Assembly: GCF_037104725.1 (NCBI RefSeq)
Contig: NZ_JBAWSX010000014.1
Location: forward strand, 1-24,000
Reading direction: 5' to 3'
DNA: 24,000 nt
Origin: Bacillus bruguierae
GTDB taxonomy: Bacteria > Bacillota > Bacilli > Bacillales > Bacillaceae_G
The notes below the pieces were generated by a model. It was not told the origin of the DNA, did no database searches, and was given only the letters and a program-made list of their open reading frames with translations. The position numbers and the translations under genes are program-made. Below, piece after piece: positions 306 through 21,304 of this stretch; position 1 is the stretch's first letter, and each line of letters opens with the position of its first letter.

Positions 306-313
306 ACTATTAC

Positions 314-5142: not shown

Positions 5143-5829
5143 TCAGTTGCTTTCAAGCAGCTTATGAATACGTAATTCTAGGTCTTGTTTCTCTTTTAAC
5201 AAAAGCTGTTCCTCTGTTTCATTGACATTAAATTGAGACAACTCTTTTATAACACCTTTTGGGATTATAAGGTTTTGTTTTACTAAATACTCTCCTAATG
5301 TTGTATATATAGCCATCTTTTCACTAAGTGTATTTTTGCAATCTCTTTTAAAGCGTTCTAACACATTACTTACAATAGCTTCTGATGATTGCTCACTTTT
5401 AACACTAATTGTAAGGTATTGATACACTTCATTTACTATTTCTTCATAATACCATCTTGCTCTTGGACAATAATCTACTGGAATTTTTTCAAGTCTTTCT
5501 AACGCCTTTTCTCGACGAATAATTAACTCTTCAAGTTGATTTTTAGTTATTTGTTTTTTTTCAATTTGTTTCTCGATTTTTTGAAAATCAATAGATTTTA
5601 ATTCTTTTATCCTATTTTCTTTTGCTATTATAAAAATTCTTGCCTTTTCCGACACTGTTTCTACATACAATACATTTATTAATGCCTTTTCCATTTCATC
5701 TTCAATGTTTGGGCTGTAATACTCATCAAAAGTTCTTGCCAATGCTTCACTATTACTCATATTATCTTGTCGTTTATATTCTAAAAAATCCTCATTAAAC
5801 GCTTCAATGCACTCTTGATACTCCCACAT
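5143..5829 (-). CDS. Helical immunity protein (about 228 aa) for the adjacent deaminase-like tip; internally duplicated
   Basis: Start chosen at the ATG at 5829 (MWEYQE), 6 nt after AAGAGGTG. The N-terminal half (SNSEALARTFDEYY...) and C-terminal half (QSSEAIVSNVLERF...KMAIYTTLGEYLV) both resemble the 116-aa protein at 13442-13792. Confidence 0.8.
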   Translation of the reverse strand: MWEYQECIEAFNEDFLEYKRQDNMSNSEALARTFDEYYSPNIEDEMEKALINVLYVETVSEKARIFIIAKENRIKELKSIDFQKIEKQIEKKQITKNQLEELIIRREKALERLEKIPVDYCPRARWYYEEIVNEVYQYLTISVKSEQSSEAIVSNVLERFKRDCKNTLSEKMAIYTTLGEYLVKQNLIIPKGVIKELSQFNVNETEEQLLLKEKQDLELRIHKLLESN

Positions 5830-5843
5830 TAAACTCACCTCTT

Positions 5844-6617
5844 TTATTTTTTAGGGGGAATTGGTTTTCCATCATTATGAATCACTTCAATTTCAATATC
5901 TGGATAATCCTTTTTAAATTGACTGATAATACTATTACAACTATCACAAGTATCTTTCTCAGTAAATAATTTTATTTTACCCTTTGCATCATGATTACCC
6001 CCTAACCGTGATGCTACATCATTTATAATCTTATACTCAGAATCTTGATCCCTTAAATAACTTACTCCATCTGCATTCTTCGCCTCTTGTGCTTCATACT
6101 TTGGGGTTTTAGGCTTTGGTGAAAATCCTTCTAAGTTCGGATTTTCACCAGCATCCTTAACTTGACTATGGGCATAAAATTCATTTTTATTTATCCCTTC
6201 AATATTTACCTCAGCGTATCCCATATTTGATCCTGATTTGTTCAGAACTCTATTTGATAGAGTTCCTTTAATCTCTGAAACTCTATTAAGAATATCAGCA
6301 TCTTTACTTGAATCAATTGATCTAGTTGGGAATCGAGAAGTCTCTCTACCACCACTCTCTTCCAACTTCGAAATCCGACTATGAATAGCCTCTTTCCTAT
6401 TTTCAAAAGTCGCTTTCACTGAACCTCTCAAGTTCGTTCCACGAAGAACTGTGTTGGCCCCACCGGCGGCGGCATCAGCAGCGTGAGCGTAGGCTAAGGA
6501 ATTATCTAGGGATTTACCAAATAATGCCCTTCTCGCCACATTAATTCCACCTGCTACACCATTTATCACCTTGATCCATTTTAAAAACATCGGAACATTG
6601 CGGCAGGAGTGGCACAA
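5844..6617 (-). CDS. Orphan deaminase-like toxin tip (paralog A), 5'-truncated by an IS3 remnant
   Basis: C-terminal '[18 protein letters not shown]...[15 protein letters not shown]...[18 protein letters not shown]' (DxE ... CxxC spacing like a deaminase core). The first ~10 codons (TTG start, [11 protein letters not shown]) are antisense to IS3-derived sequence, so there is no native start. Confidence 0.7.
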
Positions 6618-6918
6618 TCAAATGAAGAAATACCAAAATGTATTGAAAGAAAAAGGAATTACACAAAGTATGTCCCGTAAGGGGAATTATTTAGATAACG
6701 CAGTCATCGAAAATTTCTTTGGCTTATTAAAATGCTCCCTACTTTACTTACAAGAGTTCAAAAGTATGGAGCATTTTACATTAGAATTAGAAAAATATAT
6801 TCACTACTACAATAATGACCGAATTAAAACAAAATTAAAAGGAATGAGCCCTGTACAATACAGAACGCATTCCTCATTAACCGCTTAAAATATGTGTCTA
6901 ACTTTTTGGGTTCACTTC
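6600..6918 (+). mobile_element. IS3-family (IS150-like) transposase 3' fragment with right end
   Basis: '[29 protein letters not shown]...[23 protein letters not shown]' is the conserved OrfB C-terminus of the IS3 family. No N-terminal part and no left end. The terminal '...TTTTTGGGTTCA' is consistent with an IS3-type IR. Confidence 0.85.
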
Positions 6919-6938
6919 ATCTAGCAAAATAGGCTATT

Positions 6939-7328
6939 TTATAAACCTAAACCTTCTTTTACTTCTAATAACAATTTGTTTAACTCAGACTTTTCTTCTG
7001 GATTATCCTCTATGATTGACAAGACCCTTTTCTCCAAATAATCATATAATTCTTTAAAATTTAAGTAGGCTTGAGTATCTCTATCAGCAGAAGGATAGTC
7101 CATTTCTAATATAATATGAGAATCATCTATAGGCTTCGAAAGATGCGCTAAATCAAAATCGTCAAAATCATATTTAAAAAGAATCGCCACAAATTCTTCT
7201 CCATATCCTCTTTTTTGTGAAAAACATTTTAAAGCCTTTTTAAACTGTTCACCATTTACTACTAAAAAATACGTCAACATCAATTTATCAATTGTTGATT
7301 TATCGCTAACAATAGTATATTCACCCAT
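6939..7328 (-). CDS. Immunity protein (129 aa) coupled to the EndoU tip; CdiI-like
   Basis: Start moved to the ATG at 7328 (MGEYTIV), preceded by AGGAGGA. Lies 25 nt after the EndoU stop. C-terminal pattern 'LYDYLEKRVLSIIEDNPEEKSELNKLLLEVKE' parallels the 132/128-aa paralogs. Confidence 0.8.
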   Translation of the reverse strand: MGEYTIVSDKSTIDKLMLTYFLVVNGEQFKKALKCFSQKRGYGEEFVAILFKYDFDDFDLAHLSKPIDDSHIILEMDYPSADRDTQAYLNFKELYDYLEKRVLSIIEDNPEEKSELNKLLLEVKEGLGL

Positions 7329-7353
7329 TATTATCCTCCTAAAAATTGTAAAG

Positions 7354-7743
7354 TTAGTCCAGCATTGGATAAAAGTTTGTAATATTCCCTTCTGAATCAA
7401 GAAAACCTTTGAACTTCAAACCATTAGAAAATGTGCCTATCACAGTCCTTCCGTCTGCTTGGATTGTTCCATTTTGCATTGCATTTTTTCCCCACTCAAA
7501 CATTTGTGTATCCGAAACTATATTTGGATCGTATACTGTCTTCGGAGTAGATATATCTTTATATGTGATAGGTTTAGCAATATTTCCTGCCATATCTTTA
7601 CGTGGTATCCTATATTCAATTTCATACACACCCTTAATTGTGAGATGAGGTTTTTGTGTTATTATCAAATCTTCAAAGCTCACGCCTTGAGTAGATAATG
7701 ATTTTCTAAATTCATCTAAATTATGTCCTCCACTTACCCCTCT
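7354..7743 (-). pseudogene. 5'-truncated bacterial EndoU-type RNase toxin tip
   Basis: The open frame starts right after a TAA: 'RGVSGGHNLDEF...' then '...PKTVYDPNIVSDTQMFEWGKNAM...GRTVIGTFSNGLKFKGFLDSEGNITNFYP'. This matches the GGH motif and C-terminal signature of bacterial EndoU domains. No ATG/RBS and no upstream domain. Confidence 0.6.
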
Positions 7744-8471
7744 TTATGTATTTATTTTTTCAACATTTTTCAAATGATTAATGCGGAAGTTACTTCTTAT
7801 GAAGAAGAAACAAGAATTGAGTGAATATAAAGCTATTTATATGATTAAAAATTATTTTTTTCTTCTGTTCCAAACTATACAAAAAGACACCCAAGAATTA
7901 TCAAAGATTCTCCTTCATCTGTTTAACCTCCTACAGCGCAACGGACGAAAATCTCATCGATACGAGAAAAAAACAGTCTTTGATATATTAGGTGTCATTT
8001 ATAATTGTACCATATCTGAAGATCTAGCTGCTTAATTGAAAAAAGACAAAACCCATTAGGGTTTATTTCGTATGCGAATTTTTAAATAATCTACACTAAT
8101 CCCTTATAAAAAAAACCTCTGGAAAATTCCTAATGAATTCTTAGCTTGATAGCGATGTGCTCTCAGCCTAATTCAATGTAAAAAAATATCGACACTATTG
8201 TAGTATCGATATTTCAGTTACAATGATATTTTCTTTTACTTTAGGTAGAAAGGGGGCATAGGTAGTAAAGATTTTAGAAAGTATTTTTAGTTTCATCAAC
8301 TAGAAATTACTTTTTAATTTTATCTGCCACTCTTCCCCCTTTACCCCCTATTCACTGCATTATTTAAGTTATGCAGTACTAAATTTTCTTACTATTATTG
8401 ATTTAACTGTATTCTGCTATTACTATTTTTTATGAAGTTACTTAATTCTCTATTTTGCATTAAGTAACAAA

Positions 8472-8722
8472 CTATTTTAATTTCTCTAATATATTCTTTA
8501 CTTTATCTCTAATTTCATTTTCACTACAGTACATATTAGGAATCTTTAGTTCTTCTTCATCATCCGAAAATCTTCCAATCATTTCACATAACTTACCGAA
8601 TTCATAATTTTCATCAGGGCTTGTGTAAAGAGTTCTTCTCACCAGATAAATCTAGCAATCCCTTAACAAGATATTCTATTTCATTGATATTACTGTACAA
8701 GAGAATATCCTGAAAATCCCAT
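8472..8722 (-). pseudogene. Frameshifted small acidic gene (immunity-like remnant)
   Basis: ATG at 8722 just after the upstream stop. 'WDFQDILLYSNINEIEYLVKGLLDLSGEKNSLHK' and 'PDENYEFGKLCEMIGRFSDDEEELKIP...NILEKLK*' lie in different frames. Confidence 0.3.
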
Positions 8723-8740
8723 AAATTTATTTACCTGCCC

Positions 8741-9382
8741 TTACACTTCCATCACATAATCATCTACTATTTTTAAGTAGAATTTATCACCAATTTCTAC
8801 TATGGAGTTCCACTCGTATAAGTTTCCTAAAAAGTCAATAAAAATAGTAATATTCTTTGAACCTTCTTCTCCAATTCTTTGTAAATTTATACTTTCGTTA
8901 CTAATCATATTATTAATGCGTTCTGCTAATTCAGCTTCATCTTCTGAAAAAGCAATTATACTATTTATAATATCATTAAATTCTAAATACCCTGTTATGC
9001 CAAATCCACATTTAAAGTTGTTTAATAGTATGTTGCAAAGGTCTTGTTTATTCACTTGTTGTATATTTTTCAATAACTCTCTATCAACATAGCTAATTTC
9101 AACAAGTTCTTCGTACTCCTCCTCATCAAACACTAAAGGAATGTACATATAATCATCTTTCAATAAGTACTCTTTCGTTGGTACTGTGATAATAATGTCA
9201 CCTGCTTTTTTTATCTCAGAATGATAATACAAATCTGTTCCATAATTTAATTTCAATTCTAACCTATCATTAGCATAAGATATAAGTCCTATTAAACTAC
9301 CATTATGAAAAGTTGTATCACTTTTTTTCATTTCTAACCAGTCCTTATAATCCCCAGTTACTTTGTAAATATATTTATCCAT
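8741..9382 (-). CDS. Hypothetical 213-aa acidic protein (candidate immunity protein, no family recognised)
   Basis: Start moved to the ATG at 9382 (MDKYIYKV), preceded by AAGGAGA. The track ORF's 25 extra N-terminal codons lack an RBS. Confidence 0.7.
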   Translation of the reverse strand: MDKYIYKVTGDYKDWLEMKKSDTTFHNGSLIGLISYANDRLELKLNYGTDLYYHSEIKKAGDIIITVPTKEYLLKDDYMYIPLVFDEEEYEELVEISYVDRELLKNIQQVNKQDLCNILLNNFKCGFGITGYLEFNDIINSIIAFSEDEAELAERINNMISNESINLQRIGEEGSKNITIFIDFLGNLYEWNSIVEIGDKFYLKIVDDYVMEV

Positions 9383-9537
9383 AAACTTTCTCCTTATTTT
9401 AATGCTGGTATATCTGCCAAAGACGGTAATCCATTTACATTTGAAAACCTTTCCCAATCAGATGCAGGTATAAATGTCCTATGAATTATCATATCAGCTT
9501 TTGTATATATAACTGACTTGTCTTTTCGACATGTGGC

Positions 9538-10065
9538 TTAATGCAACCCAAGCCGACGAAGCACGGCTTGGGGAGTGATAGCGATGTCTGATAAAAAGCC
9601 TTGTACCGCCTCTTTTATGGATGCTTGTGTCGGATGAAATCGGTTGGCAATAACCTGTTGTTTTAACCATTTCCACAGTCTTTCAATTGGGTTCAGATTC
9701 GGTAAATATGGAGGAAGGTATACCAACATCAGCCGCTCTTTCTGTTCATGCAAGAAGTTTTGTACAGATTTGCTTTTATGAATGCGAGCGTTGTCTGTAA
9801 CCATGACCACAAACTTATCTTTATATTGCTTTAGCACATAGAAGAGGAATGACAAAAAGTCTTCCTGTTTACAGGAAGACGCCGTCTGGTGTACTACTTC
9901 TCCTGTTTGGGCGTTTACTGTTCCAAAAACGGTTACGCTAGCATGATGACCATAAGTTGGAATCTGTTTTTGCGATCCTCGTTGTGACCAAGTAGCGTGT
10001 AGACTTTGATACGCTCGCACATGCGTCTCGTCTTGATAGAGAAGAACCATATCTTCGGTCAGCAA
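9538..10065 (-). CDS. IS630-family transposase, DDE catalytic part (orfB)
   Basis: 'LYQDETHV', 'VVMVTDNARIHKS' and 'LPPYLPNLNPIERLWKWLK' are DDE motifs of IS630/Tc1-mariner transposases. Overlaps orfA by 7 nt at the A8 run (frameshift or a broken gene). Confidence 0.9.
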   Translation of the reverse strand: MLTEDMVLLYQDETHVRAYQSLHATWSQRGSQKQIPTYGHHASVTVFGTVNAQTGEVVHQTASSCKQEDFLSFLFYVLKQYKDKFVVMVTDNARIHKSKSVQNFLHEQKERLMLVYLPPYLPNLNPIERLWKWLKQQVIANRFHPTQASIKEAVQGFLSDIAITPQAVLRRLGLH

Positions 10066-10595
10066 TTTTTTTTAATCAAAGTAATTTGATGTCGGAACAT
10101 ACGCTGTTTTTTGGGATCTGCCCTCTTGAGTGTGTAGGTCGGACGGGTATAACTTAACTTCAACCGCCAAAGCATGCGTAAAACACCTGTATTCGACATT
10201 TCTATATCATACGTACGACGCAAATATTCCTGAATGACTGGTGTAGTCCAGGACACAGCGCTTCCCAAGCCTTGATCCGTCGGTGTGCTCGTTAGAATGA
10301 TTTCTTTGAGCGCCTGTTGTTGGTCGTCCGTTAGAAAACATGCGCGTCCCGGTGCCATTTTACGCTCGAGAAGGAGGTCCATGCCACCTTCATTAAACCG
10401 TTTTACGTATTCGGAAACAGACTGGCGATGGATCCCACAAATCTCGGCTGCTTCTTTGCCCAATTTCCCTTGCATGACGAGACGCACAGCCATAATACGT
10501 GTGCGAAAAAATGCATTGCTTTCCTGTTTTTCTTGTATCCGCAAGTCAGTAATCGTAAGGTCATGTGTATTTGTAATCTTCAAACGCTTCATCAT
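10059..10595 (-). CDS. IS630-family transposase, N-terminal HTH part (orfA)
   Basis: 'RTRIMAVRLVMQGKLGKEAAEICGIHRQSVSEYVKRFNEGG' is a winged-helix/HTH region typical of IS630/Tc1. Ends at the slippery TTAAAAAAAATTG. Confidence 0.9.
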   Translation of the reverse strand: MMKRLKITNTHDLTITDLRIQEKQESNAFFRTRIMAVRLVMQGKLGKEAAEICGIHRQSVSEYVKRFNEGGMDLLLERKMAPGRACFLTDDQQQALKEIILTSTPTDQGLGSAVSWTTPVIQEYLRRTYDIEMSNTGVLRMLWRLKLSYTRPTYTLKRADPKKQRMFRHQITLIKKNC

Positions 10596-10678
10596 AATCC
10601 GCTCCTTTTTCTTGTCCTTGGAACCAGTATGGACAAGATTTTGAGAGAATAAGCACAGAAGATGAAGAAACTAGTCAG

Positions 10679-11017
10679 TTATATATAGTTTGAAATATAT
10701 CCAGACACTTCACTTATTTCTTCTTTTAAAGCTTTTAATTCATCTTCGTTTAAATTATACTTTGATAAATCTAACATATTAAAACTTTCAATCTTCTTTT
10801 TCAAAACTTGTTTAAAATCATCACCTAATGGTTTTCCATATCTAGCAAATCTAGTAGCAATTGTTATAGGCATCACTATTTCATCAAGCTCATTCTGTGG
10901 TTGGTCATAATATATACATTGTGATGCTGCAACATCATAAGTACTTCCTTGTTCTATCCACATGTAAAAAGATTCCAAAGTTCTAAACTTACTTTCATAA
11001 AAATTGTATTTGTTCAT
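10679..11017 (-). CDS. Helical immunity protein (112 aa) for deaminase-like tip C
   Basis: ATG at 11017 with GAAGG upstream, 46 nt after the toxin stop. The last codon and the stop (ATA TAA) are supplied by the IS630 end. Confidence 0.75.
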   Translation of the reverse strand: MNKYNFYESKFRTLESFYMWIEQGSTYDVAASQCIYYDQPQNELDEIVMPITIATRFARYGKPLGDDFKQVLKKKIESFNMLDLSKYNLNEDELKALKEEISEVSGYISNYI

Positions 11018-11066
11018 CAAATATAACCTTCTTTCTATTTTTTTATCTTATATATTACTTCAATAT

Positions 11067-11786
11067 CTATGTTGTGATATAATTTTTAAATTGTTCTATT
11101 ATATCTAAACAACTTGGGCAACATTCCAATTCAGTAAACAATTTAATTTTCCCTGCTGTACTATACTCGGTTCCCAATTTATTTTGTATTTCTGAAAGTA
11201 TTTTAAATTCAGTATCAACATCCCTTAACCATGCTCCAGCTCCATCTACTACATTGTTTCCATCAACTTTTATTGCCTTTAATAAAGTTGAATCTGGTTT
11301 TATTAAAATGCCAGTTCCCTTAATACTCTCTATCTCTGCCTGTATTGCACTATGTGCAAAATATTCATTTTTAGTTATACCCTCTATAGTTACTTCAGCA
11401 CATTCAAAATTACCTTTTCCTATAGCCCATTGTGGCAATTTATTTTTATGTTTATTGATTATATTTAAGAAATTAGAATTTACCACTTCATCAAGTAATC
11501 TTATAGTAGTTTTAGCTTCTGCCACTCCCTTAGCAAGCGAAGCCTCAAGCCCTTGAATCTTACCATCCATAAACTTAGTACTCTCTGCATGATGCGTATT
11601 GACCCACTCAGTAATCTTTCCTGAGCCACCTTGTTCCCCTATCAACACACTGTCTCCAGCTGGTTTAGGCCCCTTGAAGAAGGCAAGTGTATTATCCATC
11701 CCTTGGGCCATTTTTCTGCCAAACTGATACATTTTTTCATTTCTGGATTTTCCTGTTTTTAATCCGTAAAATTCGAAATAATCTAA
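11067..11786 (-). CDS. Orphan toxin: TG-junction remnant + G-L-E-A-S-L-A block + deaminase-like tip (paralog C)
   Basis: The frame is open from 11786 (LDYFEFYGLKTGKSRNEKMYQFGRKM...), so it begins inside a pre-toxin region without an RBS. 'IQGLEASLAKG', then 'CAEVTIEGITKNEYFAHS...RDVDTEFKILSEI...KIKLFTELECCPSCLDII'. Confidence 0.75.
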   Translation of the reverse strand, partial: LDYFEFYGLKTGKSRNEKMYQFGRKMAQGMDNTLAFFKGPKPAGDSVLIGEQGGSGKITEWVNTHHAESTKFMDGKIQGLEASLAKGVAEAKTTIRLLDEVVNSNFLNIINKHKNKLPQWAIGKGNFECAEVTIEGITKNEYFAHSAIQAEIESIKGTGILIKPDSTLLKAIKVDGNNVVDGAGAWLRDVDTEFKILSEIQNKLGTEYSTAGKIKLFTELECCPSCLDIIEQFKNYITT

Positions 11787-11831
11787 TTATTATTTTACCT
11801 ACTTGAATGTTTTATCTAAACTATTTTTACA

Positions 11832-11919
11832 CTAAAACAAAAGGGGCTGTTCCATAAGCGAGTAAAACCAACTTATGGAACAGCCCTTTTATTTTGAATA
11901 CCTATTAATCACGTAATTT
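11832..11919. repeat. Partial third copy of the junction module
   Basis: Terminator hairpin plus 'TTAATCACGTAATTT', which equals the last 5 codons and stop of a SUKH-1 gene; the rest of that gene is missing. A further spacer scrap (TAATTTTCTTTCTCTAAAACA) lies at 12075-12097. Confidence 0.7.
11844..11886 (-). terminator. Terminator hairpin, copy 2 of 3
   Basis: Perfect 15-bp stem GGGCTGTTCCATAAG/CTTATGGAACAGCCC, flanked by an A-run and a T-run. Confidence 0.8.
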
Positions 11920-12096
11920 TTTTAGTTCGTATTTTACTGATTGTATTTTAAGCACCTGCTAATTGGATCGTAAACTATAATCCTGAGATCTAATTTATTT
12001 GGGACATTTATCTAGAAAATACACAAAAAATATTTGCGAACTCGTTTTATCCATTGGTAGACATTGCTATACGCGTAATTTTCTTTCTCTAAAACA

Positions 12097-12546
12097 CTAG
12101 CTTTTATTCTGTGCTTTAATTATTTCCATACCCTTCATAAATTTCTTAATAGAATCCTCATTCTTCATTAATCCACTTAAGTATAACAATGCATCAAATT
12201 CTTCAGGGTCTGCATCATAATATATCATTCCCGGATCAATAAAAGGTTCATAAACTATATTACATATATTTTGTCCCCCCATTTGTACACTAAAACATCT
12301 TTCCAATTTGGAAATATAACTATTTGTACAAATTAGATCGTCTACAGATGTTTCAAATGATTGTCCATTGTAGAAAAAAAATAGTTTGTTATCTTTAACA
12401 TAAATACCAACTACCTGTCCATCTTCGCTAAATCCTCCCACGCCTTGTCTAACTAACTGTACTTTATTTTTTTCAACTATTGAATATCCACTAGGTTCTA
12501 ATATAATATATGTGTCAATCTTAGGGTAATTATTCAGTATTATCAT
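12097..12546 (-). CDS. Hypothetical 149-aa protein, immunity-type position
   Basis: Strong RBS AGGAGGGGGAG 4 nt before the ATG. The RBS overlaps the stop of the small degenerate upstream ORF. No family recognised. Confidence 0.75.
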   Translation of the reverse strand: MIILNNYPKIDTYIILEPSGYSIVEKNKVQLVRQGVGGFSEDGQVVGIYVKDNKLFFFYNGQSFETSVDDLICTNSYISKLERCFSVQMGGQNICNIVYEPFIDPGMIYYDADPEEFDALLYLSGLMKNEDSIKKFMKGMEIIKAQNKS

Positions 12547-12558
12547 AAGCTCCCCCTC

Positions 12559-12823
12559 CTAATGCACTAATCCTAATAGTGTATTTATTACGTCATCTTT
12601 TTGCATTGATTTTTCAATTATAATTTTCCATACTTGTTCATCTGATTCATAAATTCCTTTATTAATGTATGAATCTTTTATCTTATTAAACATACTCTCA
12701 GCTGTTATTCCAATTAGATTACAGTATTTTTTAATATTTCTTTCCTCTAAACAAGCTATCCCCCAGCAGTCATATTTCCCCTTGCTTCAATTTTTTGCTG
12801 TAATAATTTTTTATAATTTGCAA
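12559..12823 (-). pseudogene. Duplicate of the small ORF 5-268, inactivated
   Basis: Relative to copy 1, a TGT codon is TGA and a 1-nt insertion lies near the 5' end. Only 44 codons remain open. Confidence 0.45.
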
Positions 12824-12825
12824 GA

Positions 12826-12860
12826 AAAAAGCACTTCTAGATTTATTAAGAAGTGCTTTT
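12826..12860 (-). terminator. Terminator after gene 12869-13255 (duplicate of 271-305)
   Basis: Same AGCACTTCT/AGAAGTGCT stem plus T-run. Confidence 0.7.
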
Positions 12861-12868
12861 ACTATTAC

Positions 12869-13255
12869 TTATTTAATATTATATTGCTCTTTAATTTTCA
12901 TCAACAACTCTTCAGTAATCTCTTTCTTTTCAGGATTTTTCCCTATATAAAATTCACATGCAGCACTTAAATATTGGTACAATTGATCATAATTCACAAT
13001 ATCGTAGTCATTATCACCATCGCCAGAATAAAATAAAACTTTATTTTGTCCAAAATACTCCTCATCATCTTGTTCATATTCACCTGAATAAATTACTCCA
13101 TTATATTCCCAACGCTCTCCCTCTTTACTTTTAAAACCTTCTAAGTGTTGTAGAAAGTTACGTCCATTTACATATATATTCAAAACATCAATAACTGCCT
13201 CTTTATTCAAATTTCTCTGTTTCATTATCTCAATAAATTCTTCATATACGTTCAT
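12869..13255 (-). CDS. Toxin-less immunity-type protein, 128 aa; paralog of 314-712
   Basis: RBS GGGTGGA. The N-terminal ~95 aa are diverged from the 132-aa paralog; the C-terminal ~30 aa are near-identical because they lie inside the 408-bp repeat. Confidence 0.7.
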   Translation of the reverse strand: MNVYEEFIEIMKQRNLNKEAVIDVLNIYVNGRNFLQHLEGFKSKEGERWEYNGVIYSGEYEQDDEEYFGQNKVLFYSGDGDNDYDIVNYDQLYQYLSAACEFYIGKNPEKKEITEELLMKIKEQYNIK

Positions 13256-13328
13256 ATTAATCCACCCAGTCTAATACTAGATAAGCATTCTCTATCTCTC
13301 TAGTTTCTGAATTTATCTTAGTTTTAAG

Positions 13329-13385
13329 GTGTAAAATATACTGTGTAAAGTTTAAGAAACGAAGCTTATGCAGTATATTTTACAC
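13329..13385 (-). terminator. Long hairpin downstream of 13442-13792 (terminator candidate)
   Basis: 15-bp perfect stem GTGTAAAATATACTG/CAGTATATTTTACAC with a ~27-nt loop. No clean T-run. Confidence 0.35.
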
Positions 13386-13441
13386 GCCCATTATATGACT
13401 GTTTTTTTATTTAACCTGTTCTGTTTCGTGTCATAAGACTA

Positions 13442-13792
13442 TTAATCATATAGACGTTTCTCTTCAATTTCATGTAAAATTTTCCCGATTCGAGAAAATA
13501 ATCCTACATATTGGTCGCGAGTTAACTCTTGTTGAATTAAATCTGAGTTTAGATGCTTGAGTGTTTCGACTAAGTTATTCTTTGAATTTCTATAGATCTT
13601 TGGCAATGATATTAGAAGTTCTCCGTAAGCAGTATAGACAATTGCCTTTTTGGATTCTGATTGGTTTAAAACTGTCTCATATTCTCCGAAAGTTCTTTCT
13701 ATCGCTTCTTCACTATCTATCTTTTCATCTTCTTTAAAATCATTATACGTTTCATTAAAATACTCAAATATTTCTTCATATGTTAATGCCAT
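13442..13792 (-). CDS. Helical immunity protein (116 aa) for deaminase-like tip B
   Basis: RBS AGGAGGG, 20 nt after the toxin stop. 'SEEAIERTFGEYE...KKAIVYTAYGELL' is homologous to both halves of 5143-5829. Confidence 0.8.
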   Translation of the reverse strand: MALTYEEIFEYFNETYNDFKEDEKIDSEEAIERTFGEYETVLNQSESKKAIVYTAYGELLISLPKIYRNSKNNLVETLKHLNSDLIQQELTRDQYVGLFSRIGKILHEIEEKRLYD

Positions 13793-13812
13793 TGATAATT
13801 CCCTCCTATTGT

Positions 13813-14373
13813 TTATGGTGATATCATATTACCATTATTGTGAACCACTTTGATTTCTATTTTGGGGTACTTTATTTTAAAGTGATTTATAACTCCATTA
13901 CAACTTGAGCATGTATCTTTTTCAGTAAACAGTTTAATCCTTCCTTGGGCATTCACATTATCACCTAATTGATTTGCAATGTCATTGAGTATTTTATACT
14001 CAGTATCAGCATCTCTTAAATATGGTTTCCCTCCATTTGAGTTAGGTGCTTCTGTAGCCTTAAATATCGGATTTTCCGGTTTAAAAGAAAAGTTTTCGGT
14101 TCCTGGAATTTTCTTTGCGGGATCATGTATTCCACTGTGCGAATAAAATTCCGACTTATTTATTCCAATAACATCAACTTCTGCATATGCAAAATTACCA
14201 GTTTCTTTAAATCTATTAGATAGACCACCTCTAGCTTCAGAAACTTTATCAAGTATATGCCCTTCTGTTTCTGGATTTACAATACGCGTTGGAAATCTAG
14301 CCCCACTACCACCCGTGGGGCGGATCTTGAACATGCAAAAAAATAAAAAACTGGGATTTTGAGCACGTAACAA
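13813..14373 (-). CDS. Orphan deaminase-like toxin tip (paralog B), 5'-truncated
   Basis: 'GGSGARFPTR...YAEVDVIGINKSEFYSHS...LRDADTEYKILNDIA...[18 protein letters not shown]', closest to paralog A. The first ~17 codons (MLRAQNPSFLFFCMFKI) come from the GC-rich scar and are not homologous. Confidence 0.7.
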   Translation of the reverse strand: MLRAQNPSFLFFCMFKIRPTGGSGARFPTRIVNPETEGHILDKVSEARGGLSNRFKETGNFAYAEVDVIGINKSEFYSHSGIHDPAKKIPGTENFSFKPENPIFKATEAPNSNGGKPYLRDADTEYKILNDIANQLGDNVNAQGRIKLFTEKDTCSSCNGVINHFKIKYPKIEIKVVHNNGNMISP

Positions 14374-14539
14374 CTGCCAGTAACCACTTGATCTCGCCCG
14401 TTACTTAGGAAGAGCTATCCGCCCTTCGGTTGTTAGGAAATACTTAGCTTCTCCACATCGTCAATCAGCGCTTTCCATGGCTCCCACATCAGCCATCTAG
14501 ATTTATTGGAATCTCGACCATCTCGGTTCGTCACTCGCA

Positions 14540-14675
14540 CATAATTATTCAAAATCTTACAAATAAACTTAATCGAGATAATTTCAGCGAGAAGGAAATT
14601 CGCCAAATTGCTAATTTTCTAAACTGTGATTTTGATGCTGTTTTTACACCTAAAGATAGTGGAGAAAAAATCTAA
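14540..14675 (+). pseudogene. 3' fragment of an XRE/HTH-type regulator gene
   Basis: 'IQNLTNKLNRDNFSEKEIRQIANFLNCDFDAVFTPKDSGEKI*' resembles the C-terminal part of small phage/XRE-like regulators. There is no start and the upstream part is replaced by unrelated sequence. Confidence 0.35.
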
Positions 14676-14806
14676 TATTAATTATAAAAGTGAGAATAAA
14701 AATAGACTGTGTCCGCTACATATCTGTAACTTACACAGTCTATCTTACACCCTCAAGAAAACACGAAAATTGTTACACATCCTTATTAGTCAATTCGATT
14801 TTTTGT

Positions 14807-15205
14807 TTAAAAATCAGATGGTAAACTCAAAATGTATTCAATCCTGCCTGTATTTTCTGTTTCTATTATGTCATAACCTCCTTTTTTTAACATTTCTTTG
14901 CACAATTCTATATCACTGCAAAGCTGATCTATATCTTTTTGATCCCTGCTATCTTCAAAATCTTCAATATTAAAGTATCCTTCCAGCCTATTGAAAATAA
15001 AATCGGCAATTTGTTTCGACTTAAGGCCCTCTAATGCAATGGATACAAAATATAAAGATTTAGTAAATGGACTATAATTCAAACGTCTCGCTTCTTCTTC
15101 TAAAATTTTTGCTGAAGCTTGTGCAACAGTTAAACCTTCCTCATCAATATACTCTTCAAATCCATATGCCACTGAGTTTTTTATTCTTTCATAACTATTT
15201 ATCAT
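14807..15205 (-). CDS. Helical immunity protein (132 aa) for deaminase-like tip D
   Basis: RBS AAGGAG, 13 nt after the toxin stop. Acidic helical protein ('LTVAQASAKILEEEARRL...SLYFVSIALEGL') with the same architecture as the other three. Confidence 0.8.
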   Translation of the reverse strand: MINSYERIKNSVAYGFEEYIDEEGLTVAQASAKILEEEARRLNYSPFTKSLYFVSIALEGLKSKQIADFIFNRLEGYFNIEDFEDSRDQKDIDQLCSDIELCKEMLKKGGYDIIETENTGRIEYILSLPSDF

Positions 15206-15218
15206 ACTATCAACTCCT

Positions 15219-15590
15219 TTATTTCATGCTATTTGTATAAATATCCAACTTAACATTTAGTAATTTTTCCCTGAATTCAAAAATTAAATTTGTACGGCTT
15301 TGACATACGTCAAAATCTGAAAATAGATGTATTTCCCCTATAATATTTGGATCTTTTATTTGTGAAGCTATATCTTCAAGAATCTTTGCTTCAGTATCAT
15401 TATATCGAGGAAATTTGTCATCTACATACGATTCAAGTGATTTAGTATCTTTGGAATGTGTAAAATCTCCGAAACTATCACCAAAGCTATCAGCAGAATG
15501 AACCTGACTATGCGCTTGATAATTAGTTTTTACACCAGGAATATTTACATCTGCCGTATGTTTGCTAACCATCATGAGTATTTGATTCAA
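15219..15590 (-). pseudogene. Truncated, probably inactive deaminase-like tip (paralog D)
   Basis: TTG start with no RBS. 'TADVNIPGVKTNYQAHS...RYNDTEAKILEDIA...IHLFSDFDVCQSRTNLI'. The second Cys of CxxC is Arg (CGT codon at 15294-15296). Confidence 0.6.
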
Positions 15591-16498: not shown

Positions 16499-16540
16499 TC
16501 TTTTACCAAGCTAATACATCTTGTCATTTCCAAGTTTTCT

Positions 16541-17194: not shown

Positions 17195-17397
17195 CTAATA
17201 TCATCTCCCCATAATTTATTGCCACCTAAGTGACTTACCTTATGTGTCTTAGACACTACTAACTGCATTTTTCCTGGCACCTGATGATGATACCATGTTA
17301 AATCTAAGATTCGTGGCAATTCCAACTCTATCATCTTTAATTGTTTAGGTGTAAAAATATCTCTCGGTATCTCTCCTTTATTTATTGCTGCTTTCAA
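17191..17397 (-). pseudogene. 5'-truncated WHH-type nuclease tip, signature altered
   Basis: TTG start directly after a TAA. 'DLTWYHHQVPGKMQLV...HKVSHLGGNKLWG'; the first His of W-H-H is Tyr in this copy. Confidence 0.6.
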
Positions 17398-17715: not shown

Positions 17716-18177
17716 TTAAAATATTTTAGGTACCTTAGGGATACATAAACACTCGAGCATCTCTTCAGTATTATCTCCAAATTTAACTAAGCATCCATCA
17801 GTATATCCATAATATTTTTCGCTCGGTGTAATTAATAAAATTAAATTACCTCTATCTGTTTCTCCTACTGGAATTAGTTTTTCTCCAATTTCATCATTAT
17901 ATTCTTCTTCTAAATCCTGAAAATATTCACCATCTAAACAATCTCCAACTGACAGCTTAGGATTAAAATGAATATACTCTTTCATATCAAATGCTGGATT
18001 AGGATCTTGAAAAGTAATTTCCAACATTCCAAATTCAGTTAAAAACTTTTCCGCAGTTTCAAATAAACCAATTCCCCTTTCCTTAAATAAATCTTTTATA
18101 TCGTGTATATCAATCTTTCTATCTTCATACCATCCTGCATTTGTTAGTCTTTCTATTGTAATATCTGATAATTGCAT
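17716..18177 (-). CDS. SUKH-3-like immunity protein, 153 aa, cognate to the full-length toxin
   Basis: RBS AAGGAGAG, 13 nt after the toxin stop. 'LTNAGWYEDRKID...AEKFLTEFGMLEI...IHFNP...KLIPVGETDRGNLILLI...GDNTEEMLECL' fits the SUKH-3 pattern as recalled. Confidence 0.8.
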   Translation of the reverse strand: MQLSDITIERLTNAGWYEDRKIDIHDIKDLFKERGIGLFETAEKFLTEFGMLEITFQDPNPAFDMKEYIHFNPKLSVGDCLDGEYFQDLEEEYNDEIGEKLIPVGETDRGNLILLITPSEKYYGYTDGCLVKFGDNTEEMLECLCIPKVPKIF

Positions 18178-19847: not shown

Positions 19848-20177
19848 TTACCCTTGAGGTTGTAGTTTATTATGTAATTCTTCATCCTGTTTTCTCATTT
19901 CTTCGCGAACCAGCTCTACAATGGATGCCGCTCGGTTATAATGGTCTGATAGCTCCAATATTTTATTTAATATTTGGGGATATATGTCTATGACTCTCAT
20001 CGCTTCTCCTTCAAGATAGAATTTACATTCTGCTAGACTTTTCGCATTTGTCGCTATAACACCTGTATAAATGTTATATATACTTTGAAAACGTCTTATA
20101 ATCTCTTCTATCTCATCGTAATTCATTACAATTTCTGAACTACTACTTGCACTGCCATCTCCCATTGGTACTTGCAT
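19848..20177 (-). CDS. 109-aa helical-hairpin partner protein (WXG100-like/Lap-like, no WxG)
   Basis: ATG overlaps the upstream stop (TAATG) with AGGAGGAA as RBS. Predicted two-helix protein with a central 'YLEGEA' turn. Confidence 0.8.
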   Translation of the reverse strand: MQVPMGDGSASSSSEIVMNYDEIEEIIRRFQSIYNIYTGVIATNAKSLAECKFYLEGEAMRVIDIYPQILNKILELSDHYNRAASIVELVREEMRKQDEELHNKLQPQG

Positions 20178-20908
20178 TAATGGATTCCTCCTAACGAGAA
20201 TTGTCTTGGATCGCTTATTTTCTTATACGGCATTTTTAAAACATCATATAACTTCTTATTCACCGCATACAGACTAGCCCATTCATAACGCTTACGGTCT
20301 ACTTCAATTTGAATAAAGTCTTCCCCCTCTGTAAAGTACAAGAAGCATTCCCATTTCCCGCTATCTCCTGCTCTTCGATTTCGCGGGCGAGAAAACGTTT
20401 CAATAGCTAATAGATCTTTTTCAGATAAATCCATTTCCTCGAATGTTCGCTGCTCCTTTTCTGTCATTTTCTTTGTAAAAAAAGTATCTTCGATTTCTCT
20501 TGGTTCTCGCATTAAAAACGGAATCCGTTCTAATAATGAAAAATATACATCTCGCTTCGCTATGTAATGAATTTCATATTCTTCATTTTGTTTTCGTTCT
20601 GTTAAGACAGCGACTCTATCTTTATCTTGTGGTAAAAATCCAATTAATAGATTATTAATTCGCGTATATTCTTGGCTTTCTTGATATGCCTTCAGTAATT
20701 CAATCAACTGAAAAGCCGCTGGTGTCAGTCCATTATTCTCCGTAATAAGCCCTTTCTCTTTCAACTTCACTGTCGCCTTCGTTACACATCCTTCATCAGT
20801 TAAAGTAAGAATTCCACGCTCTTGTAGGCCGAATATGTATGTAACTCCAGCTGCACCAGCTAATATGTACAGTTCAGCAGGTGTAAAGCTCCACGTATCT
20901 TTTCCCAT
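20177..20908 (-). CDS. 243-aa operon protein, candidate adaptor/chaperone (DUF5081-like by recall)
   Basis: RBS AAGGAGG. The N-terminus 'WSFTPAELYILAGAAGVTYIFGL' is reminiscent of the N-terminal motif of EspG-type secretion chaperones. No catalytic motif seen. Confidence 0.8.
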   Translation of the reverse strand: MGKDTWSFTPAELYILAGAAGVTYIFGLQERGILTLTDEGCVTKATVKLKEKGLITENNGLTPAAFQLIELLKAYQESQEYTRINNLLIGFLPQDKDRVAVLTERKQNEEYEIHYIAKRDVYFSLLERIPFLMREPREIEDTFFTKKMTEKEQRTFEEMDLSEKDLLAIETFSRPRNRRAGDSGKWECFLYFTEGEDFIQIEVDRKRYEWASLYAVNKKLYDVLKMPYKKISDPRQFSLGGIH

Positions 20909-20928
20909 CCGTTTTTACCTCCTTTCTA

Positions 20929-21234: not shown

Positions 21235-21304
21235 GTTCTTATTCCCCCATTTCCTTCAATACATTTCCTTATATTCACATCGCTTTGCCGATTATTTATA
21301 CTTT

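What the first reader, a model, noticed from the sequence alone, without database searches (positions are those of the whole stretch)
5844..15590. Four paralogous deaminase-like tips with an atypical D-x-E ... C-x-x-C signature
Tips at 5844-6617, 11067-11786, 13813-14373 and 15219-15590 align by eye. A strand-like '[YC]AEV.I.GI.K.E[YF].[AS]HS' is followed by a 35-45 aa variable insert. Then come 'R[DY].D[ST]E.KI[LI]..[IV]' and, ~30 aa later, 'KIKLFTE...C.SC..[IV]I'. The spacing and context mimic the H/C-A-E ... P-C-x-x-C zinc site of the cytidine-deaminase fold, but Asp occupies the first ligand position. These tips differ from the YwqJ-like CAE...CKNC tip of the live toxin, so the locus holds two deaminase lineages. 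Small bacterial toxin deaminases have been useful as base-editor scaffolds. An expanded, immunity-paired set with variable inserts is therefore worth characterising, including its substrate (ssDNA, dsDNA, RNA or nucleotide), which is unknown.
Basis: partly seen in the sequence, partly recalled or inferred. Interest (0 to 1): 0.75.

Follow-up and report, generated by a model that had tools for sequence, protein, structure and literature searches.

The report
Orphan BURPS668_1122-family deaminase toxin cassettes
The four look-alike segments are real copies of an already described bacterial toxin deaminase family (Pfam PF14424) whose published hallmark is the "odd" Asp-x-Glu ... Cys-x-x-Cys motif, and here they sit as headless, partly broken spare toxin cassettes, each with an immunity gene, behind a type VII secretion toxin of a Bacillus.

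Summary
The four minus-strand ORFs are paralogs (tblastn E 1e-8 to 1e-53) and share the motifs described.

The "deaminase-like" reading is right, but the signature is not atypical. All four score above threshold for Pfam PF14424 (BURPS668_1122 clade). Iyer et al. [quoted passage not shown] In 189 family sequences the first position is D in 184.

The window is from Bacillus sp. FJAT-51639, where NCBI already names tip 3 "deaminase domain-containing protein".

None of the four copies has a secretion domain:
- Tip 1 is cut by an IS fragment.
- Tip 2 has a frameshift that removes strand 4.
- Tip 3 starts at the domain boundary.
- Tip 4 is truncated and has lost the second Cys.

A sister strain carries independent lesions in tips 2 and 4, while the immunity genes stay intact. 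The cassettes lie downstream of an EsaD/EsaE-type T7SSb toxin. That toxin's own tip is a second, rare deaminase-fold domain below the YwqJ Pfam threshold.

Verdict: ordinary polymorphic-toxin biology, new members of a known kind. The family still lacks a solved structure and firm biochemistry.

The parts
5844..6617 (-). Tip 1: orphan PF14424 deaminase module. It has a Nuc_N pre-toxin linker remnant at about 6351-6485 and a complete deaminase domain at about 5847-6239, with R-D-E-K, C-x-S-C and H-N all present.
   Evidence: PF14424 E 1.2e-35 and Nuc_N E 1e-6. Motif census. NCBI protein P0022, 'deaminase domain-containing protein'. The 5' end abuts an IS fragment.
5143..5838 (-). Immunity gene of tip 1: 231-aa protein with two tandem Imm3 domains.
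   Evidence: PF14425 Imm3 E 3.4e-39, two stretches. Two domains also in my own Imm3 profile. The same ~226-234 aa size class follows PF14424 tips in many genomes.
6571..6888 (+). IS3-type integrase-core (rve) fragment that truncates the 5' side of tip 1. In the sister strain it is part of a repeated unit together with the Nuc_N linker.
   Evidence: rve_2 E 3e-21. Window 6346-6920 is 91-92% identical to L072 4907-5477 and 6965-7526.
11067..11786 (-). Tip 2: orphan PF14424 module with a Nuc_N-like linker. Its reading frame is broken after helix 3.
   Evidence: PF14424 E 5.7e-24. The linker is 43% identical to the N-terminus of ORF 15986-16498. Frameshift. An independent lesion is present in the sister strain.
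11035..11085 (-). Out-of-frame remnant of tip 2 strand 4 (KLYHNIDIEVIYKIKK*). It was displaced by a 1-nt deletion in the run TTTAAAAA.
   Evidence: Three-frame translation. Sister strain 491mf reads FKKLYHK* with a different 1-nt indel.
10679..11020 (-). Presumed immunity gene of tip 2 (113 aa), probably a divergent Imm3-like protein.
   Evidence: No Pfam hit. It scores 15.9 bits against an Imm3-like profile built from 55 genes downstream of PF14424 tips, versus 5.0 bits or less for controls. It is 97% identical and in the same position in strain 491mf.
11832..11924 (.). 93-bp inter-cassette repeat with a terminator-like hairpin, upstream of tip 2. Other copies lie at 16633-16725 and 2801-2893, at the 3' ends of SUKH-1 immunity genes.
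   Evidence: Self-blastn 90-93.5% identity. Sequence read.
13813..14373 (-). Tip 3: orphan PF14424 module. The deaminase domain is complete, starts at the domain boundary (about residue 25) and has no linker or trafficking region.
   Evidence: PF14424 E 1.2e-38, full profile 2-146. Residues 1-22 have pLDDT below 50. There is no Shine-Dalgarno sequence upstream. Identical to NCBI protein P0001.
13442..13792 (-). Immunity gene of tip 3 (116 aa, single Imm3 domain).
   Evidence: PF14425 E 5.9e-25. One nt difference in 351 from the sister strain.
15219..15590 (-). Tip 4: decayed PF14424 remnant. It lacks helix 1 and part of strand 1, CxxC has become C-Q-S-R, and HN has become TN.
   Evidence: PF14424 E 6.6e-15, profile 21-145. 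It is the only R at the second Cys among 189 sequences. The sister-strain copy keeps C-Q-S-C but has a nonsense codon. All 8 nt differences are nonsynonymous.
14807..15205 (-). Presumed immunity gene of tip 4 (132 aa) with a good RBS, probably a divergent Imm3-like protein.
   Evidence: No Pfam hit. 12.4 bits against the Imm3-like profile. 99% identical in the sister strain, with relatives downstream of PF14424 fragments in L032 and L005.
18191..19813 (-). Full-length ('live') T7SSb toxin (540 aa): an EsaD-type helical N-terminal carrier plus a rare C-terminal deaminase-fold tip (CAE ... CKNC).
   Evidence: The N-terminal 315 aa are 56% identical to P0044, which carries Nuc_N plus a PF14424 tip. 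The C-terminus has 6 homologs only, none with Pfam. Foldseek top hits are blasticidin-S and cytidine deaminases.
17716..18177 (-). SUKH-3 immunity gene of the live toxin.
   Evidence: PF14433 E 5e-21.
19848..21703 (-). Secretion helper genes: a helical 132-aa protein (21305-21703), a WXG100-like protein (20929-21234), a DUF5081/EsaE-like chaperone (20177-20908) and a small 109-aa protein (19848-20177).
   Evidence: PF06013 E 1e-9 and PF16887 E 8e-86. DUF5081 is the EsaE family required for EsaD export (PMC12478183).

Best explanation
The four tips are C-terminal toxin domains of the BURPS668_1122 / Pfam PF14424 'Toxin-deaminase' clade. They are stored as promoter-distal orphan cassettes, each a toxin tip plus an immunity gene, downstream of an EsaD/EsaE-type type VIIb secretion toxin in Bacillus sp. 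FJAT-51639.

Shown:
- Family membership.
- The family-wide R-x-x-D-x-E-x-K ... C-x-x-C motif.
- A predicted four-stranded deaminase-like core, with the DxE at the N-cap of helix 2 and the CxxC at the N-cap of helix 3.
- Absence of any trafficking domain.
- Inactivating lesions in tips 2 and 4.
- Intact downstream immunity genes.
- In other genomes, the same carrier N-terminus fused through a Nuc_N linker to a PF14424 tip.

Inferred:
- In a full-length toxin the domain is exported by the T7SSb. Inside a rival cell it acts as a zinc-dependent (Asp/Cys/Cys ligands, Glu proton shuttle) cytosine deaminase, most likely on single-stranded DNA.
- The Imm3-type protein encoded just downstream binds and blocks it.
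- The orphan cassettes serve mainly as a bank of immunity genes against neighbours' toxins.
- They may also act as spare tips that can replace the live tip by recombination through the shared linker. The tips themselves drift towards pseudogenes.
For: Family membership and motif:
- All four ORFs pass the PF14424 gathering score, 56-133 bits against 29.6.
- Iyer et al. 2011 define the clade by RxxDxExK, the strand-2/helix-2 insert, CxxC, frequent C-terminal truncation, T7SS association and Imm2/Imm3/SUKH immunity.
- Motif census in 189 sequences: R 187, D 184 (C 5), E 188, K 189, C 185, C 186.

Fold:
- The AF2 model has pLDDT 88.4 and pTM 0.82, with elements H34-49, E61-68, E75-79, H124-136, E144-150, H156-168 and E172-178.
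- 47 of the top 50 Foldseek PDB hits are APOBEC3 deaminases, with probability up to 0.96.

Immunity:
- Pfam Imm3 lies downstream of tips 1 and 3.
- 59 of 84 genes downstream of PF14424 tips in 79 genomes are BLAST-similar to them.

Distribution and carriers:
- The family has 1793 representatives, and the domain is always C-terminal on LXG, Nuc_N-linked, VgrG-like or giant carriers.
- P0044 has the same carrier N-terminus as the window's live toxin (56% identity), followed by Nuc_N and PF14424.

Cassette turnover, from sister strain Bacillus sp. 491mf:
- The same locus has a WHH-nuclease live tip, and Nuc_N-linked orphans.
- Window 6350-6572 (tip 1 linker) is 97% identical to an internal segment of that strain's live toxin gene.
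- Tips 2 and 4 carry independent lesions in the two strains.
- Toxin tips diverge 2.5 to 5 times faster than their immunity genes.

Activity:
- ssDNA cytosine deamination was reported for PF14424 clade members in a base-editor reporter.
Against: - No experiment exists on these proteins.
- I could not obtain model coordinates, so clustering of D, E, C and C was not measured. It is only inferred from their positions at helix N-caps.
- No PF14424 relative has a solved structure, so Asp as a zinc ligand is unproven.
- A 175-enzyme in-vitro screen of 13 deaminase families found nearly all DNA activity in five other families. I could not verify whether PF14424 members were included.
- There is no DNA homology between the orphans and this strain's own live toxin gene, so tip replacement in this strain is not demonstrated.
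- The Imm3 assignment of the tip 2 and tip 4 partners rests on low scores of 15.9 and 12.4 bits.
Confidence: 0.85

Rival explanations
1. The array is purely an immunity-gene bank. The deaminase tips are dead remnants on their way out and will never be reused. Only the Imm3-type genes are under selection, protecting against PF14424 toxins fired by neighbours.
For: - Tips 2 and 4 carry lesions, and the lesions are independent in the two strains.
- Tip 3 is reduced to its last 51 aa in the sister strain.
- All 8 differences in tip 4 are nonsynonymous, while immT4 and immT3 are nearly identical between strains.
- There is no homology handle to this strain's own live toxin gene.
Against: - Tips 1 and 3 retain every conserved residue and a full domain.
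- Tip 1 keeps a 223-bp linker that is 97% identical to the live toxin gene of a sister strain.
- The live tip at this locus differs between the two strains, so replacement does happen.
- Tip 2 shows 12 synonymous versus 16 nonsynonymous codon changes, which is not fully neutral.
Confidence: 0.3
2. Tips 1 and 3 are expressed on their own as intracellular toxin-antitoxin-like pairs (toxin plus Imm3), independent of secretion. They might act in addiction, abortive infection or regulated mutagenesis.
For: - Both have complete domains and tightly coupled downstream immunity genes, with 13-20 nt spacing and a good RBS.
- NCBI annotates both as CDS.
- Many database homologs are short, 108-307 aa.
Against: - No convincing start codon or Shine-Dalgarno sequence lies in front of the tip 3 domain.
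- The tip 1 5' end is an IS scar.
- The promoter scan is at background, 79 found versus 70.6 expected.
- The domain is always C-terminal on secreted carriers when full-length.
- Short homologs are the usual signature of orphan modules in polymorphic toxin loci (PMC3482391, listed).
Confidence: 0.08
3. The PF14424 domain has the deaminase fold but is not a DNA cytosine deaminase. Replacing His/Cys with Asp changes metal binding or chemistry, and the real target is RNA/tRNA, free nucleotides, or a different base.
For: - Asp at the first ligand position is family-wide, 184 of 189.
- The family has no solved structure.
- It is not among the five families that gave nearly all DNA activity in the 175-enzyme screen.
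- The deaminase-like fold also hosts non-deaminase enzymes (abstract of PMC3239186).
Against: - PF14424 clade members gave ssDNA C-to-T editing signal in reporter assays.
- The sister clade SCP1.201 (DddA), which also tolerates D at this position ([HD]xEx[KQ]), is a proven DNA cytosine deaminase (PDB 6U08).
- The catalytic Glu and both Cys are near-invariant.
Confidence: 0.2

Closest known systems
BURPS668_1122 clade / Pfam PF14424 'Toxin-deaminase' (Iyer, Zhang, Rogozin & Aravind 2011, PMC3239186)
   Same: All four tips pass the Pfam threshold. [quoted passage not shown] They sit in a T7SS polymorphic-toxin context and have Imm3 immunity partners.
   Different: Nothing that defines the family differs. 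The local particulars are four copies in one 24-kb array (63 of 79 comparison loci have one), two copies broken, and two immunity partners too divergent for the Pfam Imm3 model.
DddA / SCP1.201 clade (BaDTF1, PF14428), dsDNA cytidine deaminase toxin, PDB 6U08
   Same: Iyer et al. place it as the sister clade. It shares the strand-2/helix-2 insert and a polar residue two positions after the catalytic Glu, and some members also have DxE. It is an interbacterial toxin with a cognate immunity protein.
   Different: No significant sequence or profile similarity to the tips was detectable here (hhalign E 0.24; no PDB hit). DddA itself uses HxE and is delivered by T6SS. Its substrate (dsDNA) is established, whereas the tips' substrate is not.
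B. subtilis YwqJ (PF14431) LXG deaminase toxin with YwqK (SUKH) immunity, recently shown to be an ssDNA cytidine deaminase (PMC13648612)
   Same: It is a T7SSb-delivered deaminase toxin of Bacillus. The window's live tip has the YwqJ-like features Cys-x-Glu, an insert between strand 3 and CxxC, and SUKH-3 immunity.
   Different: The orphan tips are a different lineage (hhalign not significant). The live tip scores only 12.9 bits against PF14431 (cut-off 25.9). The carrier here is EsaD/EsaE-type and has no LXG Pfam hit.
Orphan toxin/immunity cassette arrays of polymorphic toxin systems (CDI cdiA-CT/cdiI orphans, Rhs, MafB, LXG; Zhang et al. 2012, PMC3482391), and S. aureus EsaD-EsaG with multiple esaG copies
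   Same: A full-length toxin is followed, in the same orientation, by 5'-truncated tips. Each tip has an immunity gene, there are short shared linkers and inter-cassette repeats, and cassette content differs between close strains.
   Different: No homology handle links the orphans to this strain's own live gene. The handle matches the sister strain's live gene instead. IS fragments are embedded in the repeated unit.

Membership tests
Pfam PF14424 Toxin-deaminase (BURPS668_1122 clade) | Profile-HMM score above the curated gathering score (29.6 bits) | tested here: met
   Tip 1 123.2, tip 2 85.3, tip 3 133.0 and tip 4 56.0 bits.
Pfam PF14424 Toxin-deaminase (BURPS668_1122 clade) | R-x-x-D-x-E-x-K motif at helix 2 | tested here: met
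   R, D, E and K are invariant in all four tips. The model places D123 at the N-cap of helix 124-136. The definition is quoted.
Pfam PF14424 Toxin-deaminase (BURPS668_1122 clade) | [quoted passage not shown] | tested here: met
   About 40 residues (80-123 in tip 3) lie between E75-79 and H124-136, and they are confidently modelled.
Pfam PF14424 Toxin-deaminase (BURPS668_1122 clade) | C-x-x-C at the start of helix 3 | tested here: met
   Met in tips 1-3 (C-x-S-C). Not met in tip 4 (C-Q-S-R), a derived change because the sister-strain copy has C-Q-S-C.
Pfam PF14424 Toxin-deaminase (BURPS668_1122 clade) | C-terminal toxin domain of polymorphic toxins with adjacent Imm2/Imm3/SUKH immunity gene | tested here: met
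   Imm3 follows tips 1 and 3. The partners of tips 2 and 4 are only weakly Imm3-like. Relatives are C-terminal on LXG, Nuc_N and VgrG-like carriers.
Pfam PF14424 Toxin-deaminase (BURPS668_1122 clade) | Zinc-dependent deaminase activity; D, E, C and C forming one site | not testable with these tools
Only helix N-cap positions support a common site.
Cytidine-deaminase-like fold (CDA clan) | Three-layer alpha/beta/alpha core that superposes on solved deaminases | tested here: inconclusive
YwqJ-like deaminase (PF14431), for the live toxin tip | Profile-HMM score above the gathering score (25.9 bits) | tested here: not met
   12.9 bits, E 0.13, over a 16-residue stretch. The 6 known homologs carry no Pfam domain.
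YwqJ-like deaminase (PF14431), for the live toxin tip | [CH]xE in helix 2, insert between strand 3 and CxxC, SUKH-3 immunity, deaminase fold | tested here: met
   DNCAE ... FVRTVNF-KTGEFADF-CKNC. SUKH-3 lies downstream. The top 34 Foldseek hits are blasticidin-S or cytidine deaminases, with weak E of 0.06-0.5.
LXG toxins (PF04740), for the carrier | N-terminal LXG domain detectable by Pfam | tested here: not met
   No LXG hit at E<=10 in residues 1-238. The context is instead EsaD/EsaE-like: a DUF5081 gene (E 8e-86) and a WXG100-like gene lie upstream.
Orphan toxin-immunity cassettes of polymorphic toxin loci | 5'-truncated tip lacking a trafficking domain, in the same orientation downstream of a full-length toxin, each followed by an immunity gene | tested here: met
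   ORF map and Pfam annotation of the whole window.
Orphan toxin-immunity cassettes of polymorphic toxin loci | Shared homology region with a full-length toxin that allows tip replacement | tested here: inconclusive
   None with this strain's live gene. There is 97% identity over 223 bp between the tip 1 linker and the sister strain's live toxin gene, and the live tips differ between the strains.

The most novel reading that the evidence does not exclude
The PF14424 clade may use an Asp-Cys-Cys metal site that no solved deaminase shows. The four natural variants here differ mainly in the 40-residue insert over the active site. They could therefore have distinct substrate or sequence-context preferences (ssDNA, dsDNA or RNA), giving compact (about 150 aa, four-stranded) base-editor scaffolds with matched inhibitors. 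Separately, the live toxin's tip (6 homologs in 5.8 billion proteins, no Pfam) could be a new deaminase toxin family.
Probability: 0.15. Interest if true: 0.6.

Novelty: new member of a known kind. Interest (0 to 1): 0.25.

Why it matters
The practical value is modest. The family was defined in 2011, has about 1800 representative clusters, is in Pfam, and has already been sampled for base editing.

What remains open for the family as a whole is its structure, whether Asp really ligates zinc, and its substrate range. Tips 1 and 3, with their Imm3 partners, would be convenient intact toxin-inhibitor pairs for that work, but so would hundreds of others.

The locus is a clean two-strain illustration of how orphan toxin tips decay, with independent frameshift, nonsense and Cys>Arg lesions, while their immunity genes are conserved.

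Tried and rejected
- **PDB sequence searches.** A single sequence and a 36-sequence profile found no deaminase. The only hits were a spurious MalE1 match.
- **Profile comparison with DddA.** hhalign of the family profile against DddAtox was not significant. I recalled the DddA sequence from memory and verified it against 6U08.
- **Profile comparison with the live tip.** hhalign against the live-tip alignment was not significant. The two deaminase-fold domains are therefore separate lineages, and a direct residue-by-residue equivalence of DxE with HxE could not be shown by sequence.
- **NCBIfam.** No models matched any tip or immunity protein.
- **Promoter and terminator scan.** At background level.
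- **The look-up of encoding contigs.** No record for tip 3.
- **Literature dead end.** The S. suis 'Imm3' paper uses the name for an unrelated DUF443 protein.
- **Rejected: CAE or AHS as the catalytic motif.** The C of 'CAEV' is present only in tip 2. It lies in strand 1, not at a helix N-cap.
- **Rejected: tip 2 as a naturally short 'truncated after helix 3' variant.** The missing strand is readable out of frame, and the sister strain has a different indel at the same place.
- **Correction.** The synonymous/nonsynonymous count for tip 4 printed used the wrong frame. The correct count comes from the frame-1 translations in the same output: 8 amino-acid changes from 8 nt changes.

Full report
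**1. Observation**

All long ORFs of the window lie on the minus strand. The four stated ORFs exist at the stated coordinates.

tblastn of each against the window recovers the others:
- tip 1 vs tip 3: 52% identity over 174 aa, E 2e-52
- tip 2 vs tips 1 and 3: 30-36% identity, E 1e-24 to 1e-26
- tip 4 vs tip 3: 30% identity over 117 aa, E 2e-8

The four-way alignment has 19 invariant columns, among them R, D, E and K of R-x-x-D-x-E-x-K and the first Cys.

**2. What the tips are**

All four score well above the gathering threshold of Pfam PF14424, 'Toxin-deaminase, the BURPS668_1122 family of deaminases' (E 1.2e-35, 5.7e-24, 1.2e-38 and 6.6e-15).

The paper that defined this clade (Iyer et al. 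2011, PMC3239186) lists its diagnostic features:
- secretion by T7SS among other routes
- immunity proteins Imm2, Imm3 and SUKH

It states explicitly that the clade 'possesses a DxE motif' in place of CxE/HxE.

I quantified this. An HMM alignment of the four tips with 185 relatives, including 150 representatives that are less than 50% identical to each other, gives:
- R 187/189
- D 184/189, with the other five being C
- E 188
- K 189
- first Cys 185
- second Cys 186

The family is large. It has 1793 representative clusters at E<=1e-3 and 866 at E<=1e-10 among 1.84 billion representatives, and the domain is always at the C-terminus.

The window comes from Bacillus sp. FJAT-51639. Tip 3 is 100% identical to an NCBI protein already named 'deaminase domain-containing protein', and tip 1 matches another such protein.

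**3. Fold**

An AF2 model of tip 3, built with a 36-sequence alignment, is confident (pLDDT 88.4, pTM 0.82). Its elements run in this order:
- helix 34-49
- strand 61-68
- strand 75-79
- a structured 40-residue insert
- helix 124-136, with D123 and E125 at its N-cap
- strand 144-150
- helix 156-168, with C155 and C158 at its N-cap
- strand 172-178

This is the deaminase arrangement, truncated after strand 4 as Iyer et al. describe.

No PDB chain is detectably related by sequence, even with the family profile. The family has no solved structure.

I could not obtain coordinates. Clustering of D, E, C and C is therefore inferred from topology, not measured.

**4. The genomic setting**

Pfam annotation of the whole window gives, in transcription order:
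- M60 peptidase
- a helical 132-aa protein
- a WXG100-like protein
- DUF5081
- a 109-aa protein
- a 540-aa toxin (18191-19813)
- a SUKH-3 immunity protein
- a long array of toxin-fragment and immunity pairs

The array contains, in order:
- WHH fragment with SUKH-1
- a Nuc_N-containing ORF with a small ORF
- tip 4 with a 132-aa ORF
- tip 3 with Imm3
- a CdiI_4 gene
- an unknown ORF
- tip 2 with a 113-aa ORF
- an IS630-type transposase
- an EndoU fragment with a CdiI_4-like gene
- an rve fragment
- tip 1 with a double Imm3
- a fragment with Imm22
- WHH fragment with SUKH-1
- CdiI_4

DUF5081 is the EsaE chaperone family needed for export of the S. aureus T7SSb nuclease toxin EsaD (PMC12478183). 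From my own knowledge, the gene order here matches the S. aureus esxC-esxB-esaE-esxD-esaD-esaG order. The carrier has no Pfam LXG hit.

The locus is therefore an EsaD/EsaE-type T7SSb polymorphic toxin locus with an orphan cassette array.

**5. None of the four tips is a complete toxin gene**

- **Tip 1.** It retains a Nuc_N pre-toxin linker, but its 5' side is replaced by an IS3-type integrase fragment on the other strand.
- **Tip 2.** It is preceded by a 93-bp repeat containing a terminator-like hairpin. The repeat otherwise marks the 3' ends of the SUKH-1 genes. Its frame breaks after helix 3: the last strand, 'KLYHNIDIEVIYKIKK*', is readable in another frame.
- **Tip 3.** It begins at the domain boundary, with no Shine-Dalgarno sequence. 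Its first 22 residues are unstructured filler.
- **Tip 4.** It starts inside the domain and reads C-Q-S-R where all other 188 sequences with a residue there have Cys.

**6. Comparison with a sister strain**

Two contigs of Bacillus sp. 491mf (L070, L072) carry the same cassettes at 92-99% DNA identity.

| Feature | Window (FJAT-51639) | Sister strain 491mf |
|---|---|---|
| Tip 2 ending | FKNYITT* | FKKLYHK*, from a different 1-nt indel a few codons away |
| Tip 4 | C-Q-S-R, N-terminus truncated | Intact C-Q-S-C and longer N-terminus, but a GAA>TAA nonsense codon |
| Tip 3 | Complete domain | Reduced to its last 51 codons by a deletion |

All eight nucleotide differences in tip 4 change the protein.

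Divergence between the strains is higher in the tips than in the immunity genes:
- tip 2: 30/687 nt, against 6/342 nt for its immunity gene
- tip 4: 8/337 nt, against 2/399 nt for its immunity gene
- tip 3's Imm3 gene: 1/351 nt

The toxin halves are therefore decaying while the immunity halves are maintained.

**7. Evidence for cassette exchange**

- The live toxin at the same locus in 491mf has the same N-terminal carrier but a Nuc_N linker and a WHH nuclease tip. It is followed by orphans with Nuc_N plus WHH and Nuc_N plus EndoU.
- The tip 1 linker (window 6350-6572) is 97% identical to an internal part of that live gene.
- In the protein database, P0044 (571 aa) combines an N-terminus 56% identical to the window's live toxin with Nuc_N and a PF14424 tip.

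So the carrier-linker-PF14424 combination exists as a full-length toxin elsewhere. Against ready exchange in this strain, its own live gene shares no DNA similarity with any orphan.

**8. Immunity partners**

The genes after tips 1 and 3 are Pfam Imm3 (E 3e-39, as two tandem domains, and E 6e-25).

In 79 genome loci fetched with the family profile, the gene just downstream of a PF14424 tip falls into two size classes, about 116-125 aa and about 226-234 aa. Of 84 such genes, 59 are BLAST-similar to the window's Imm3 genes.

The partners of tips 2 and 4 have no Pfam hit. They score 15.9 and 12.4 bits against an Imm3-like profile I built from 55 such downstream genes, against 5.0, -0.7 and -1.4 bits for three unrelated ORFs of the window. 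They are probably divergent Imm3 proteins, but the support is weak.

**9. How unusual is four copies?**

Among the 79 comparison loci of about 20 kb, 63 have one PF14424 ORF. Those with two or more are mostly frameshift pieces of one gene. Four separate copies is at the top of the range. It is a difference of degree, not of kind.

**10. The 'two lineages' claim**

The live toxin's C-terminal 179 aa have only six homologs among 5.8 billion proteins, and none has a Pfam domain. The domain reaches only 12.9 bits on PF14431 YwqJ-deaminase, against a cut-off of 25.9.

It nevertheless has:
- a Cys-Ala-Glu motif
- a strand followed by an insert and then C-K-N-C
- a SUKH-3 partner
- a moderate-confidence model (pLDDT 74.6) whose top 34 Foldseek hits are all blasticidin-S or cytidine deaminases (E 0.06-0.5, probability up to 0.96)

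Profile comparison with the PF14424 alignment is not significant. The locus does hold two deaminase-fold lineages. The live one is the rarer and less well described, but it is not a member of PF14431 by the curated threshold.

**11. Function**

No PF14424 member appears to have been characterised in depth.
- One study reports ssDNA cytidine deamination for the 'Toxin-deaminase (PF14424)' clade in a Cas9-fusion reporter (bioRxiv 10.1101/2023.05.21.541555).
- A 175-enzyme in-vitro screen of 13 families found nearly all DNA activity in five other families. I could not verify whether PF14424 was included.
- Related toxin clades are proven DNA cytosine deaminases: DddA acts on dsDNA, SsdA and YwqJ on ssDNA, and BaDTF3/DddB on dsDNA.

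The most likely activity is zinc-dependent cytosine deamination of DNA. This is an inference.

**12. Verdict**

However:
- the family and its DxE signature have been known since 2011
- the proteins are already labelled as deaminase domains by NCBI
- the copies are orphan cassettes, two of them broken

Novelty: new members of a known kind. Interest is low to moderate.

Noticed in passing
window 18191-18730 (C-terminal about 179 aa of the 540-aa live toxin): The live toxin's tip is a rare, unannotated deaminase-fold domain. It has only 6 homologs in 5.8 billion proteins, none with Pfam, and is sub-threshold for YwqJ. Its Foldseek top hits are blasticidin-S and cytidine deaminases, and it is paired with SUKH-3. 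It is arguably more novel than the four PF14424 tips.
   Followed up: partly
window 19848-21703 and 18191-19813: The carrier system is EsaD/EsaE-like, not a Pfam LXG toxin. A DUF5081 (EsaE chaperone family) gene, a WXG100-like gene and two small helical genes precede the toxin, in the same order as S. aureus esxC-esxB-esaE-esxD-esaD.
   Followed up: partly
window 11035-11100; L070 about 780-850: Tip 2 has a 1-nt deletion in an A-run that puts its last beta-strand out of frame. The sister strain Bacillus sp. 491mf has a different 1-nt indel a few codons downstream. These are two independent lesions at the same spot.
   Followed up: yes
window 15219-15590; L072 8882-9430: Tip 4 has Cys>Arg at the second zinc Cys and an N-terminal truncation here. 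The sister-strain copy keeps the Cys and a longer N-terminus but has a nonsense codon. All 8 nt differences are nonsynonymous, while the immunity gene differs at 2 of 399 nt.
   Followed up: yes
window 11832-11924, 16633-16725, 2801-2893: A 93-bp repeat (90-93.5% identity) containing a strong terminator-like hairpin. Two copies sit at the 3' end of SUKH-1 immunity genes. The third sits upstream of tip 2 with no SUKH-1 gene, which looks like a scar of cassette loss.
   Followed up: partly
window 6346-6920; L072 3630-3852, 4907-5477, 6965-7526: The unit 'rve (IS3-type) fragment plus Nuc_N linker' upstream of tip 1 occurs twice in the sister strain, in front of WHH and EndoU orphans. Its linker part is 97% identical to the interior of that strain's live toxin gene. 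An IS scar appears to travel with the recombination handle.
   Followed up: partly
window 1-545 vs 12555-13100; 2697-3563 vs 16528-17394: Duplicated cassettes within the array: CdiI_4 immunity genes at 90% DNA identity, and WHH-fragment plus SUKH-1 pairs at 78% identity.
   Followed up: no
window 9538-10595: An IS630-type transposase, split into two overlapping ORFs (HTH part and DDE_3 part), is inserted in the array between the tip 2 cassette and ORF 8741-9457.
   Followed up: no
window 5143-5838 and loci L001-L009 and others: Imm3 immunity proteins come in two sizes, single-domain (about 116-125 aa) and tandem double-domain (about 226-234 aa). Both follow PF14424 tips in many Bacillales genomes.
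   Followed up: partly
window 15986-16498 with 15728-15979; 12097-12546; 8741-9457: An orphan with a Nuc_N linker and a C-terminal region with no Pfam hit (170 aa), followed by an 83-aa ORF. Two further array ORFs (149 and 238 aa) also have no family assignment. These are possible unclassified toxin or immunity modules.
   Followed up: no
window 14374-14806: A 430-nt stretch without ORFs between the tip 4 immunity gene and tip 3. It contains short pieces that read like gene fragments on both strands. It is deleted in the sister strain together with the 5' two-thirds of tip 3.
   Followed up: no
window 21993-22041: A 49-bp near-perfect palindrome (88% self-complementary) lies between the M60 peptidase gene and the T7SS helper genes.
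   Followed up: no
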